Below, piece by piece: positions 7,940 through 15,896 of a stretch of 19,335 nt of DNA; position 1 is the first letter of the stretch; the number at the start of each line of letters is the position of its first letter. Below the pieces are notes generated by a model that did not search any database, was not told the DNA's origin, and worked only from the letters and a program-made list of their open reading frames with translations. The position numbers and the translations under genes were made by a program. The stretch comes from Candidatus Omnitrophota bacterium. GTDB lineage: Bacteria > Ratteibacteria > UBA8468 > MWAK01. The stretch spans positions 1-19,335 of the forward strand of contig JAZDPL010000088.1 of NCBI GenBank assembly GCA_043797665.1. Direction: 5' to 3'.

Positions 7940-8332
7940 TCATTTTTTTTCTTCCGTAGTAGGCTTTGGCATTTTGGCACCGTAGCGGCTCCGGCTGCTT
8001 CTGCGTCCTTCCACTCCCAACGCGTCGTAGACGCCGCGTACTAAATGGTACCGTACGCCGGGCAGGTCTTTGACCCGGCCGCCCCGCACCAGAACTATGG
8101 AGTGTTCCTGAAGACTGTGTCCAACGCCGGGAATATACGCGATTACCTCTTTGTGGTTGGACAGTCTTACCTTGGCAATCTTGCGCAGAGCAGAGTTGGG
8201 TTTTTTGGGTGTCATCGTCTTGACGTATAGACAGACCCCGCGTTGAAACGGATTACCACCCAGGGCCGGAGCCTTCGATTTTCTTGCCTGGTGTTTGCGT
8301 GCTCCCCTAATTAGTTGGTTGACGGTTGGCAT
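7940..8332 (-). CDS. rpsL: 30S ribosomal protein S12
   Basis: [18 protein letters not shown] and [16 protein letters not shown] 8332 follows AAGGAGAAGAGG and overlaps the end of rpoBC by 26 nt. Confidence 0.99.
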
Positions 8333-11300
8333 CCTCTTCTCCTTTCGCAGGTTCAAATTCCACAAGTTCGGGTTCTTTTTCTTTTGGTTTCGGGAAGAAA
8401 CCGGTTCCCGCCGGAATGAATTTTCCCAGGATGACATTTTCTTTGACGCCTAACAGCGGGTCTTCTTCACCCATCAACGCCGCATCCGTAAGGACCCGGA
8501 CGGTATCCTGGAAAGACGCCGCGGAGATGAAGCCTTCGCTGGAGAGGGCTATCCGGGTGATGCCCATAACCAGCGGTACGACCGTCGCCGGCTCTCCGTC
8601 TTTGGCTTCTACCCGTTCATTTTCCCGTAATGCCCGGAATCGGCTCACCTCTTCGCCTTCCAGGAAGAGGGTGTCACCCGGTTTTTCCACCCGGACCCGG
8701 GAGAACATCTGCCGGATAATAATTTCGATATGTTTGTCGTTTATGGTAACCCCTTCCAGACGATAGACCGACTGGACTTCGTTAAGGAGGTGTTCTTGAA
8801 CCTTAGCCTCACCGCCGATTCTTAAAAGGTCATCCAGCGCTACCGGACCCTCGGTCAGTTTTTCACCAGCCACCACGTAGAATCCGTCGGTCACCAGAAG
8901 GTGTTTATCGAACGGAATGATATAGCTCTTCTCCTGTCCTGAAGCAATGCTGGATATCTTCACTACCCGCTGGTTCTTTTCGTTGATTTCTATTGAGATT
9001 CTGCCGTCAATTTCCGCCAGGATTGCCGGACGTCTGGGTTTGCGGGCTTCAAAGAGTTCGGCAATCCTGGGCAGCCCGCCGGTAATATCCTGAACCCGGC
9101 TGGCTAACCTGGGAATGCGTGCTATGATATCACCGGCCTGAACCTTCTGATTTTTGTCTATCATCAGATGGGCATCAACCGGCAGGTAATGGGAATCAAC
9201 CTTTCGGCCTTCGGAATCTTTGACCACCACCGAGGGTGCAACATCTTCTTTGTGTCCGATGATAATCTTCATGGTATGGCCGGCGGATTCGTCGGATTCT
9301 TCTTTGTAGGTAACTCCTGATTTTAAACCGTCAAAACTTACCATACCGGATTTTTCCGCCAAGATGGGCAGCATATAGGGGTCGCGTTCCAAGAGGATGT
9401 CGGAACGTTTAATCTTTTCACCTTCTTTGACGTGCAGGATATCGCCCACCTGCGCCGGATAGTGGTCCACTTCCCGGTTCCGTTCATCCAGAAGGACCAG
9501 CGTTGCCCCGCGGTTGAGGATTACCGACTTATTAGAGCGGTTGACCGCAGACCGCAGGTTCTGGAACTTAATCGTTCCTTCCCGTCGGGCGCGGATTTTG
9601 GTTTCTCCCACAATCCGGCTGGCGGTTCCTCCGATGTGGAAGGTCCGCAGGGTAAGTTGCGTACCGGGTTCTCCAATCGACTGGGCCGCTACAACGCCTA
9701 CCGCTTCTCCTAAGTCCGCCACCTTACGGGTGGCCAAGTTCCAACCGTAACACTTCTGGCAGACGCCCCGTTCCGCCTTACAGGTAAGGACGGACCGGAT
9801 TCTAATTTTTTCTACGCCAATCTCCTCGATTTTGGCTGATGCCGCTTCGGTGATAACCTCATTGATTTCCACAATTACTTCGTCGGTGACGATATCGGTA
9901 ATCCGGTCCACCGCCACCCGGCCAATGATACGTTCATGCAATGGTACCATAAGGCGGTCGCCTTCCCAGACCGGTGCCACCAGGATACCGGTAGTGGTCT
10001 GACAGTTTTCCGTGGTAACGACTACGTCCTGGGCAACGTCGACCAGACGCCGGGACAGGTAGCCGGAGTTGGAGGTCTTAAGCGCGGTGTCCACTAACCC
10101 TTTCCGTCCTCCGTGAGTGGAGATGAAGTATTCCAGAACCGTAAGACCCTCGCGGAAGTTGGAGATGACCGGGGATTCAATGATTTCGCCGATGCCGCCG
10201 GTAACCTTCTTAACGGGCCGGGTCATCAGACCGCGCATCGCCATCAACTGGGTTACCTGCTGGCGGTTACCCCGGGCGCCGGACTGAACCATCAGATAGA
10301 TGGGGTTTACCTCAAACCGCTTTTCCAGTCCGTCCTTCAGCCGGGTGAAAAGGTCTTCACTCATCTTCATGGTACAGGAGGTCCAGGTATCAACTATTTT
10401 GTGGTAACGTTCACCCTCGGTGATGATGCCCCGTTTATAGTCCTGTTGTACCCGGGACACCTCGTTGGAGGCGATGTTGACCAGTTCTATCTTATTCTCC
10501 GGGACAGGCAGGTCCTGGACGCTGATGGTCAGACTGGATTCGGTTACGATGGTGAAACCTAAATCCTTGGCCGCATCCAGGAACCGGGCACACTCTGAGA
10601 ATCCGTAACGGTGGTAAATTTCTTTAATGAGCCGGGCAAGAACCGCTGAATCGACCAGGATGTTATAGTACCCCATTCCGCCGGGTAAAAGTTCGTTAAA
10701 GATAATCCGGCCCGGTGTAGTTTCAATAATTTTCGAACTAAGCCGGATCCGAATCGGTTGGTGGTAATTGAGGTGTCCGCCGGTAAGTGCGGTCAGAACC
10801 TCGTTTGGCCCGTGATAGACCTCTTTACCGGGAGTCAGAGTACTATTAACGAGGGTGAGATAATAACATCCCAAGAGCGCTTCCCGGGTAAGGTTGACGA
10901 TGGGTTTCCCGCTGGCCGGTGAAAAGATGTGGGTAGCCGCGTTCAGGATTAAGTGTGCTTCTGTCTGGGCTTGAATGGACAGGGGCACGTGGACCGCCAT
11001 CTGGTCGCCGTCAAAGTCAGCATTAAAAGCGGTGCAGGCAAGCGGGTGCAGCCGGATAACGTTATCCTCAATCAGGCGCGGGAAGAAAGCCTGTATGCTG
11101 AGCCGGTGCAGGGTGGGCTGACGGTTGAGCAGGATCGGATGGTTCCGGGTAACGTCTTCCAATATCTCCCAGACTTCCGGGTCGTTCCGTTCCAGGGCGC
11201 GTTTGGCACTGCTGATGGTATGGACATATTCCCGGCGCCGGAGTTCCCTTAAGATGAAAGGCGCAAAGAGTTCCAGCGCCATATGTTTAGGGAGACCGCA

Positions 11301-14300: not shown

Positions 14301-15896
14301 CCGGGGGATTATCGGATACTTGTCCTGTAGTCGGACCATAAGTTCTTTGACCGCTATCCTCCCGTTTTCGTCCAGGTGGGTACCCGCGGGAGCGATGCAG
14401 AATTTATCTTCCTCGTCCGCCGAGAGGTAGACCACTTCATCGGTAACCTTGCCACCCAACACTTTCCGGTACGGAGTACGTAAGAACCCTAATTCGTCCA
14501 CCCTGGCGTAGGTAGCCAGGGAGGTCAATATCCCGATGTTGCCGCCTTCCGGCGTTTCAATCGGACAGATTCTGCCGTAATGAGTATAATGTACGTCCCG
14601 GACCTCAAAACCGATGCGCTTGCGTTCAGAAAAAACCCCTTCTCCGATAGCGGTCAGACGCCTTTTGTGAGTCAATTCTGCTAAGGGGTTGGTCTGGTCC
14701 AGCAATTGAGAGTAAGGACTGCGCGCAAAGAAGTCTTTGATGGTTGCCGAAAAGGTACGGCTGTTGACCAGGTCCTGGGGGGTAACCTCATCACTTTTGG
14801 CTAAGTTTAGCCGGTCATGAATGAGTCGGGCAAGCCGGGTCAGCCCGATTTCAACCTGTTCGGCGACAAGTTCTCCCACCATTCTTATCCGTTTATTTCC
14901 CAGATGGTCAACGTCATCGGTTATCCCTTGATTTTCATATAATCCAAAGAGGTAGGCGATGGTTCCGACGATATCCTCTTTTTCCAGAACCATCCCATTA
15001 GAAGAAAGGTTAAGTTTCTTATTTAACTGACTTCGGCCGGCTTCGGAGAGGTCGTAGTTCTCCGGGCTGAAGAAGAGATGATTAAAGAAGTCAGAAGCCT
15101 TCTTTTTGGTAACCGGGTCCCCGGGCCGGAACATGGAATAAAGTTCTATCAGGGCTTCTTCCTGTCCGGCGAGGGACTTTTTTTGAAGGGTATTCTGCCA
15201 GATTTCGTAGCCGTTACTTTCCTGTCCTTTGGGGAAAAAGAGTCGGGTCAGTTCTTCCTTTAATTCGTACCCCAACGCGGTGAGAAGGATTGAAGCCAGG
15301 ATTCTCTTTCTGCCTAAGTAAGCGTAGAGGATGTTTCCGCCGTCACACCGGAATTCCAACCACATCCCGCGCCGGGATACAATCCGGGCAGAATATTCGC
15401 GGGGTGCACCCGGTTCTTCTTTAAAGTAAACACCCGGCGAGCGCTGGAGCCGGGCAATGACCACCCTTTCCACTCCGTTGATAATGAACGTACCCCGGTT
15501 GGTCATCAACGGCATCTGCCCCAGGAAGACCTCGTTCCCTGCTTTAGTCTCCCGCGCCTGAAGTAACTCTCCGGTCTCTTTGTCCTTACGGATCAGTCGC
15601 AAAGAGATGCGGAGGGAAGCGCAATAGGTTAAGCCGGTAATTTTACATTCGGGGACCGAATAGTTGGTTGGTTCCAGAACATAGTAGGCGTAGTCTAACT
15701 GGAGGGTTTTCTTGGCGTTGATTATCGGGAATATCTTTCGGAAGACCGCTTCCAGTCCTTGATTCTTTCTCTCTAAGGGAAGCACACCTTCCTGGAGAAA
15801 CTCCTGGTACGAAACTAATTGCGAGCCAAGAAGGTCCGGAATTTCCATTTCATCTAATTCCTTCTTGCCGGCGTAAAGGGAATCCGCTTTTTTCAT
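8307..15896 (-). CDS. rpoBC: fused DNA-directed RNA polymerase subunits beta and beta'
   Basis: One 2529-aa ORF. Beta motifs ([57 protein letters not shown]) are followed in frame by beta' motifs ([16 protein letters not shown], zinc finger, [35 protein letters not shown]). Confidence 0.97.

What the first reader, a model, noticed from the sequence alone, without database searches (positions are those of the whole stretch)
8307..15896. Natural-looking rpoB-rpoC fusion with a minimal linker, possibly an independent lineage
Seen: the beta C-terminal motif [21 protein letters not shown] runs through only RDSKGKET (12366-12389) into the first conserved beta' strand [19 protein letters not shown]. 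There is no stop, no in-frame ATG at the junction and no leftover intergenic DNA. The halves are about 1169 and 1350 aa. Known: fused beta-beta' is described in Helicobacteraceae and Wolbachia. Inference: a one-base sequencing error would leave the subunit tails and spacer in place, so their loss points to an evolved fusion. The moderate-GC DNA and divergent proteins do not look like those two groups, which suggests a separate origin.
Basis: partly seen in the sequence, partly recalled or inferred. Interest (0 to 1): 0.8.

Follow-up and report, generated by a model that had tools for sequence, protein, structure and literature searches.

The report
Phylum-wide fused RNA polymerase gene
In this uncultured bacterium the two largest RNA polymerase subunits are encoded as one protein, joined by a short hairpin turn; the join is shared across its phylum and several neighbouring ones, a new and possibly very old case of an oddity known from Helicobacter and Wolbachia.

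Summary
The fusion is real. One 2529-aa frame (8307-15896, minus) holds complete beta and beta', has no start codon at the junction, and is the genome's only rpoB/rpoC. It is fixed in the phylum, probably Ca. Ratteibacteria: 56 of 65 genomes read through the junction, none of the 65 was found split, and the other 9 lack the junction in their assemblies. The join is 18-20 residues shorter than Helicobacter's and is predicted as strand-turn-strand. Shared origin with Helicobacter is rejected (AU p=5.6e-5). It may not be unique to this phylum: NPL-UPA2 and three unnamed neighbouring phyla are also fused, and two of them are its sister group in two-subunit trees (SH-aLRT 93, 97), though rival placements are not rejected. 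Omega is retained (61 of 65). I found no paper naming these lineages. The scan noted such fusions before in other DNA (Patescibacteria, one Bacilli strain), not in this phylum. Verdict: new member of a known kind.

The parts
8307..15896 (-). Fused rpoB-rpoC gene, 2529 aa, the only RNA polymerase large-subunit gene found in the genome
12390..15896 (-). beta half, residues 1-1169 (Pfam Rpb2_1, 2, 3, 45, 6, 7)
12387..12407 (-). last strand of beta, residues 1164-1170 (predicted)
   Evidence: DSSP on AlphaFold models
12372..12386 (-). turn joining the halves, residues 1171-1175; variable in sequence across the phylum, nearly fixed in length
12351..12371 (-). first strand of beta', residues 1176-1182 (predicted)
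8307..12365 (-). beta' half, residues 1178-2529 (Pfam Rpb1_1 to Rpb1_5)
11004..11024 (-). catalytic NADFDGD motif, residues 1625-1631, intact
15907..16308 (-). rplL (L7/L12), ends 10 nt before the fused gene's ATG
7940..8332 (-). rpsL (S12); its likely ATG overlaps the last 26 nt of the fused gene
7407..7877 (-). rpsG (S7), last gene of the cluster here; fusA does not follow

Best explanation
This is the cell's ordinary housekeeping RNA polymerase, with beta and beta' made as one chain. SHOWN: one frame, all conserved domains and the catalytic motif intact, no second copy, fixed in the phylum, not descended from the Helicobacter fusion. PREDICTED: beta's last strand runs through a roughly 5-residue turn into the first strand of beta'. 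INFERRED: (1) these two strands already lie side by side in the assembled enzyme (recalled from solved bacterial structures, not measured here), so a short turn is all that is needed and the enzyme works as a normal core with alpha and a short omega. (2) The fusion began when the stop and start between two adjacent in-frame genes were lost; the dispensable tail of beta and head of beta' were then trimmed. (3) It persists mainly as a ratchet: splitting again needs a new stop, ribosome-binding site and start at once (my weight about 0.55), with a benefit from fixed 1:1 stoichiometry and co-translational assembly as the alternative (about 0.35). (4) The event predates the phylum's last common ancestor and is about as likely as not shared with at least one neighbouring phylum.
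For: Frame and motifs. Phylum: 57 of 65 genomes match a 150-aa junction query, 56 across the junction with no stop, 1 (G041) on a contig that begins inside the linker; of the 8 without a match, 5 have no hit to a 1200-aa query and 3 only pieces at contig ends away from the junction. Controls: 76 of 80 fetched genomes from outside the phylum are split; 77 of 80 named loci are split and the 3 fused ones are Helicobacter. Anchor-to-anchor junction length 77-81 aa in 39 phylum genomes against 95-97 in Helicobacteraceae. Isolated fused proteins nested among split relatives keep the old beta' head (P0038, 98 aa), which is what an error or recent read-through looks like. An independent metagenome contig (X1 record 1, 124 differences in 1801 nt) spans the stretch in one piece with no listed indel at the junction (4 indel rows not shown). 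Strand-turn-strand at pLDDT 73-85 with a 38-row alignment and 75-78 without one. The phylum is one clade at 100% in beta and beta' trees; joining it to Helicobacter is rejected. Starting points for fusion exist: in G079 and G097 the rpoB stop is followed directly by an in-frame ATG. A synthetic rpoB-rpoC fusion is reported as functional (passage in 10.1101/2021.11.05.467461).
Against: No raw reads of this genome and no protein-level evidence; no contig of the one RNA run laid spans the junction. Both models are poor overall (mean pLDDT 55.6 and 59.7; best Foldseek match TM about 0.4, rmsd about 18 A) and pairing of the two strands was not measured. The phylum's place in the tree depends on the model: LG FastTree trees put it among long-branched outsiders, the beta' mixture tree beside Omnitrophota, the beta mixture tree beside a planctomycete. 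The ratchet and the benefit were not tested. P0242 carries this phylum's beta' behind an unrelated N-terminus instead of beta; I read it as an assembly chimera but could not check its DNA.
Confidence: 0.88

Rival explanations
1. One ancient fusion is shared by this phylum, the phyla of G212 and G165, and perhaps NPL-UPA2 (variant on age and scope, compatible with the main reading).
For: Fused in every genome where the junction is assembled: G140's phylum (junction identical to P0063, labelled NPL-UPA2) 10 fused of 11 matched of 13, the eleventh broken at a contig end; G212's phylum 9 of 9; G165's phylum 8 of 8 matched of 9; G184's phylum 3 of 3 matched of 6. Two-subunit mixture trees make the phylum sister to the G212 and G165 phyla (SH-aLRT 93 with 27 rows; 97 with 17 rows). 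Holding it with the fused neighbours is not rejected (p=0.095 beta'; 0.31 beta; 0.29 both with NPL-UPA2).
Against: Sisterhood with mostly split Omnitrophota is not rejected either (p=0.23) and is the best tree for beta' alone (SH-aLRT 81 and 91). Linkers differ in length (76-81, 83-93, 92-97, 102 aa) and share no clear sequence. Fusion recurs readily nearby: five separate fused groups nest among split proteins of the clade with Omnitrophota labels. Quick searches, SH-aLRT only, long branches, and split sister lineages may be unsampled.
Confidence: 0.5
2. The fusion arose once in the stem of this phylum alone, independently of all neighbours.
For: Distinct, uniformly short junction; long stem branch (0.3-0.4 changes per column); beta' tree beside Omnitrophota; repeated fusions elsewhere.
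Against: The best two-subunit trees give wholly fused sisters; wholly fused phyla cluster in this one radiation, while only 18 of 385 matched genomes in a domain-wide sample showed a read-through match.
Confidence: 0.4
3. The gene is fused but the protein is cut, or beta' is also started internally, so the working enzyme has separate subunits.
For: The turn is charged and probably exposed; some relatives have in-frame GTG, TTG or ATG codons near the junction.
Against: The window has no such codon in residues 1161-1190, and those in relatives are not at one position in all families; the turn's sequence is not conserved, unlike a protease site.
Confidence: 0.06
4. Sequencing or assembly error, or a recent strain-level read-through.
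For: Such cases exist among the hits (P0038, P0090), and no raw reads of this genome were seen.
Against: 56 genomes in 5 families agree; tails and spacer are gone; an independent contig agrees.
Confidence: 0.01
5. The fused gene came by transfer from, or shares its origin with, Helicobacteraceae or Wolbachia.
For: Same architecture; the two fused-family profiles are the top NCBIfam hits.
Against: Scores are about half the cut-offs; AU p=5.6e-5 against Helicobacter; the closest split beta and beta' with a name are mostly labelled Omnitrophota; the junction is 18 residues shorter than that of the Helicobacter-type P0100.
Confidence: 0.02

Closest known systems
Helicobacteraceae RpoBC (NCBIfam NF007172 / PRK09603; Zakharova et al. 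1999 and Lane & Darst 2010 as cited in PMC7483510)
   Same: beta then beta' in one frame in the usual rplL-rpoBC-rpsL setting; fixed in a lineage; housekeeping enzyme
   Different: Separate origin; 2529 aa against a 2890-position profile; junction 18-20 aa shorter; fixed at the level of a phylum, not a family
Wolbachia RpoBC (NCBIfam NF011417 / PRK14844; that this profile is the Wolbachia family is recalled)
   Same: One-chain beta-beta'
   Different: Score 2318 against cut-off 4632; alphaproteobacterial fused proteins group with Alphaproteobacteria
Ca. Adlerbacteria and other Patescibacteria fusions (PMC11515920, passage; earlier scan notes)
   Same: Natural fusion in uncultured small-genome bacteria
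   Different: Patescibacteria-like fused proteins fall far away in the mixture tree and have longer junctions (101-111 aa for P0094-P0098, P0101, P0104)
Canonical bacterial RpoB and RpoC (TIGR02013, TIGR02386); nearest named split forms in Omnitrophota
   Same: All domains, catalytic motif and gene neighbourhood; 61-69% identity over the beta stretch and 61-65% over the beta' stretch searched
   Different: Separate chains with their own tails, stop and start
Engineered E. coli rpoB-rpoC fusion (mentioned in 10.1101/2021.11.05.467461)
   Same: Shows that a tethered enzyme can work
   Different: Artificial; its junction was not compared here

Membership tests
Bacterial RNA polymerase beta (TIGR02013) | Score above curated cut-off; full set of Rpb2 domains | tested here: met
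   1542 against 801 bits; six Pfam Rpb2 domains
Bacterial RNA polymerase beta' (TIGR02386) | Score above cut-off; Rpb1 domains; NADFDGD motif | tested here: met
   1578 against 963.5 bits; five Rpb1 domains; motif at 1625
Natural beta-beta' fusions (class) | One reading frame with both subunits and no separate copies | tested here: met
Natural beta-beta' fusions (class) | Inherited in a lineage, not confined to one assembly | tested here: met
   56 of 65 genomes, none found split
Natural beta-beta' fusions (class) | Made and kept as one polypeptide in the cell | not testable with these tools
   Needs proteomics; no RNA contig spans the junction
Helicobacteraceae RpoBC (NF007172) | Score above equivalog cut-off | tested here: not met
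   2535 against 5372 bits
Helicobacteraceae RpoBC (NF007172) | Common descent with the Helicobacter fusion | tested here: not met
   AU p=5.58e-5 on beta', 26 rows
Wolbachia-type RpoBC (NF011417) | Score above equivalog cut-off | tested here: not met
   2318 against 4632 bits
Wolbachia-type RpoBC (NF011417) | Common descent with the Wolbachia fusion | tested here: inconclusive
   Trees separate the phylum from Alphaproteobacteria, but the stand-in P0102 is an unverified protein from an insect assembly and the AU test was not run
Ca. Ratteibacteria (name of the host phylum) | Falls in one clade with a protein so named | tested here: met
   P0004 (NCBI: Ca. Ratteibacteria, 79% over the junction) sits inside the window's family clade. 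Labels are loose: others in the clade are labelled Omnitrophica or Elusimicrobia, and P0085, also labelled Ratteibacteria, belongs with G212's phylum. I put the name at about 85%.

The most novel reading that the evidence does not exclude
A single ancient rpoB-rpoC fusion unites three or four candidate phyla next to Omnitrophota (this phylum, the phyla of G212 and G165, and possibly NPL-UPA2). It would be a rare genomic change marking a clade above phylum rank, the deepest such fusion I could find, with this phylum having trimmed the join to a bare hairpin. If Omnitrophota nest inside, as the best trees weakly allow (SH-aLRT 84-86), the gene may even have split again.
Probability: 0.4. Interest if true: 0.65.

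Novelty: new member of a known kind. Interest (0 to 1): 0.45.

Why it matters
The papers I could read name only Helicobacteraceae, Wolbachia and Ca. Adlerbacteria. Here whole phyla carry the fusion, so it is not a quirk of host-associated bacteria. The junction is a candidate marker for sorting the poorly resolved phyla around Omnitrophota, whose genomes are often mislabelled. The naturally minimal join is a ready design for a single-chain polymerase for structural work. Practically, these genes are annotated as only beta or only beta', which can drop or distort two common marker genes in tree pipelines.

Tried and rejected
1) Fusion replaces omega: Pfam PF01192 hit only 25 of 65 genomes, but a profile from 12 phylum sequences hit 61 of 65 and 31 of 31 high-quality genomes; the omega call itself is weak (one Pfam hit over cut-off in this genome, NCBIfam E about 1e-3). 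Rejected. 2) Internal start for beta': none in the window. 4) Raw reads: only Logan contigs with shares of 0.10 or less; the small shares were not used to name a habitat; X2, X3 and the RNA run X21 gave no listed piece spanning the stretch. 6) The 'open frame' column of genome searches reads through stops, so I judged fusion by stops inside the match and by translation. 7) LG FastTree placements of the phylum were set aside as probable long-branch attraction; they disagree with each other and with the mixture trees. 8) The 27-row AU test did not finish and was repeated with 17 rows; AU tests against P0102 (beta') and Helicobacter (beta) were not reached. 9) Foldseek on the 461-aa model returned only beta' chains at TM about 0.4, uninformative for the junction. 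10) P0102's 65-aa junction was not used as the Wolbachia junction: it is a gene model on a 140-Mb insect contig. 11) A Planctomycetota control search could not be centred on a named locus. Rows dropped before trees: halves under 900 aa, P0081 and 8 beta proteins without the anchor motif, and random subsamples of split hits (45 beta kept; 25 plus 19 chosen beta').
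Full report
VERDICT. The fusion is real, fixed across the host phylum and unrelated to the Helicobacter fusion. It is a new member of a known kind. The new point is its breadth: several neighbouring phyla are fused as well, and a shared ancient origin is about as likely as not.

1. OBSERVATION. The window holds one frame of 2529 aa at 8307-15896 on the minus strand. 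It passes the curated cut-offs for both rpoB (1542 against 801 bits) and rpoC (1578 against 963.5). Pfam's last beta domain ends at residue 1169 and the first beta' domain starts at 1177. The codons of residues 1161-1190 hold no stop and no ATG, GTG or TTG, the catalytic NADFDGD is intact at 1625, and tblastn finds no second copy in the genome, which is 86% complete. The setting is the usual secE-nusG-rplKAJL-rpoBC-rpsL-rpsG order (secE, rplK and rplA read from the translations, not scanned). It is compact: 10 nt after rplL and a 26-nt overlap with rpsL.

2. NOT AN ARTEFACT. GTDB holds 65 genomes of this phylum (one class, 5 families). A 150-aa junction query matches 57; 56 cross the junction without a stop, and G041's contig begins inside the linker. 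I translated 40 of the 56 junctions directly (39, G058). Of the 8 without a match, 5 have no hit to a 1200-aa query and 3 have pieces ending at contig ends away from the junction. So no split member was found in those searched. Controls: of 86 genomes from other phyla, 82 matched and 80 were fetched; 76 are split and 4 fused. Of 80 named loci (best 80 of a saturated 600-row scan), 77 are split and 3, all Helicobacter, are fused. One contig from another public metagenome, 124 letters different over 1801, spans the stretch in one piece; its listed gaps are 27 nt at 11913-11942, away from the junction (4 indel rows not shown). Raw reads were not available.

3. HOST. The closest named protein is labelled Ca. 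Ratteibacteria (P0004, 79%) and lies in the window's family clade. Others in the clade are labelled Omnitrophica or Elusimicrobia; a preprint notes that Ratteibacteria are filed as Omnitrophica in BV-BRC (10.1101/2023.11.21.568195, passages). P0085, also labelled Ratteibacteria, belongs to a different GTDB phylum. I put the name at about 85%. The nearest split beta and beta' that carry a name are mostly Omnitrophota.

4. JUNCTION. Between two fixed anchors the junction spans 77-81 aa in 39 phylum genomes (77 here; 76 in P0011), 83-93 in G140's phylum and 95-97 in Helicobacteraceae; the pairwise gap to a Helicobacter-type protein is 18 residues. The only shorter one, P0102 (65), is an unverified gene model from an insect assembly. 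Length is nearly fixed within the phylum while the sequence varies. Two AlphaFold models give helix, strand (1164/1165-1170), five-residue turn, strand (1176-1182/1183), with local pLDDT 73-85 and 75-78. Both models are poor overall (55.6, 59.7), and I saw only secondary structure, not strand pairing. That the two strands pair in solved enzymes is recalled.

5. ORIGIN. The phylum is one clade at 100% in every tree. Under the mixture model it lies in a radiation with Omnitrophota- and Verrucomicrobia-labelled proteins (SH-aLRT 96-99), while Helicobacter and the alphaproteobacterial fusion go with Proteobacteria. Forcing it with Helicobacter is rejected (p=5.6e-5). Of 120 listed hits to the junction, 106 are fused proteins. 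In a 401-genome sample across the domain, 18 of 385 matched genomes gave a read-through match (long linkers can be missed). Following these up: G140's phylum, whose junction is identical to a protein labelled NPL-UPA2, has 10 fused of 11 matched of 13; G212's phylum 9 of 9; G165's 8 of 8 matched of 9; G184's 3 of 3 matched of 6; G108's 2 of 2; G144 is a one-genome phylum, fused. With both subunits the best trees make the window's phylum sister to the G212 and G165 phyla (93 with 27 rows; 97 with 17 rows; the Omnitrophota rows there are fused members standing in for a mostly split group). Against this: beta' alone prefers Omnitrophota (81, 91), beta alone a planctomycete within a group that includes those two phyla, and LG trees place it elsewhere. 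AU tests reject neither a clade with the fused neighbours (p=0.095, 0.31, 0.29) nor one with Omnitrophota (p=0.23). These groups were named after I had seen trees, so the p-values are a guide only. Five separate fused groups also nest among split proteins of the Omnitrophota-labelled clade, so repeated origin is easy here. I put shared origin with at least one neighbour at 0.5, stem-only origin at 0.4.

6. HOW IT WORKS. Shown: a complete single-chain beta-beta' gene that is the cell's only one. Inferred: a normal core enzyme whose two large subunits are tied where they already touch. The likely path is loss of the stop and start between adjacent in-frame genes (G079 and G097 have a stop directly followed by an in-frame ATG), then trimming to a turn. 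Persistence is most simply a ratchet, since reversal needs a stop, a binding site and a start together; fixed stoichiometry and easier assembly are the alternative. Neither was tested. Compensation for a lost omega is rejected: a short omega-like gene is found in 61 of 65 genomes and 31 of 31 high-quality ones, though its identity as omega rests on weak profile hits.

7. LITERATURE. PMC7483510 (passages and reference list) names Helicobacteraceae and Wolbachia, citing Lane & Darst 2010 and Zakharova et al. 1999, neither of which is held. PMC11515920 (passages; supplementary table searched) names Ca. Adlerbacteria and Wolinella and has no occurrence of Ratteibacteria in text or table, nor of NPL-UPA2 in the table. 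10.1101/2021.11.05.467461 (one passage) says the genes are occasionally fused and that a synthetic fusion works. Passages of three of the nine papers listed for Ratteibacteria do not mention a fusion; the other six I saw only as listings. PMC2147049 (passages) was irrelevant. Ten searches found no report for these phyla. Most subscription papers and all bioRxiv supplements are outside the library, so this is not proof of absence. JGI already labels some related proteins 'beta-beta''. Earlier notes of this scan report similar fusions in Patescibacteria and one Bacilli strain, none in this phylum among those shown.

8. SCORE. Known kind, recurrent, no new chemistry: that limits surprise. Fixation across whole phyla, the minimal join and the chance of a marker above phylum rank raise it. 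Interest 0.45; 0.65 if the single deep origin holds.

Noticed in passing
window 7028-7877; G000 contig C2: rpsG is not followed by fusA here; fusA and a tuf lie together on another contig. An EF-G motif follows in 14 of 15 loci of families f3-f5 but 0 of 6 of f1-f2 (one with only 942 nt left), so the str operon seems broken in these families.
   Followed up: partly
L290 (G212); P0059, P0060, P0067, P0072-P0074, P0085, P0095, P0101: The nearly invariant NADFDGD motif starts with G in 7 and A in 2 of 237 proteins scanned, mostly in the clade of G212's family.
   Followed up: partly
window, beta residues 410-417: The residues after HKRR read LTA in this family where 162 of 205 proteins have LSA; other members of the phylum vary too. 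From recall this is part of the rifampicin pocket, so natural insensitivity is possible; untested.
   Followed up: no
window about 11913-11942: A 9-residue in-frame insertion in beta' that its congener G001 and a related metagenome contig lack.
   Followed up: no
P0242: A beta' of this phylum (family f3) preceded in frame by about 115 residues that look like a membrane transporter, joined at beta's last strand; probably an assembly chimera, cluster of 4 members.
   Followed up: partly
G000:C17:2758-2943 (L242): The omega-like gene is only 61 aa and lies between a nucleotidyltransferase-like gene and a gene followed by a PilT-like ATPase (read from translations), not beside gmk.
   Followed up: partly
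L286 (G351) and G198, family f132: Another fused lineage (2804 aa, 85-aa junction) on a long branch, unrelated to this one in the FastTree tree.
   Followed up: partly
P0050, P0057, P0044, P0077, P0082, P0087, P0061: Further scattered fused proteins, one labelled Ca. Magnetobacterium; P0044 is close to split G214, so some are recent or errors.
   Followed up: no
window 745-1473: Partial DDE transposase (PF13701, profile positions 193-431 only).
   Followed up: no
window 5223-5768: DUF4160 and DUF2442 gene pair, a toxin-antitoxin-like arrangement by recall.
   Followed up: no
window 1879-6991: LamG-domain protein, two amidohydrolases and a DegT aminotransferase on the plus strand, converging on the ribosomal cluster; tRNA-Trp at 18859-18932.
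   Followed up: no
L158 (G134), L186 (G121), L199 (G087): Unusually long gaps between rpoB and rpoC (about 0.8, 0.5 and 2 kb).
   Followed up: no
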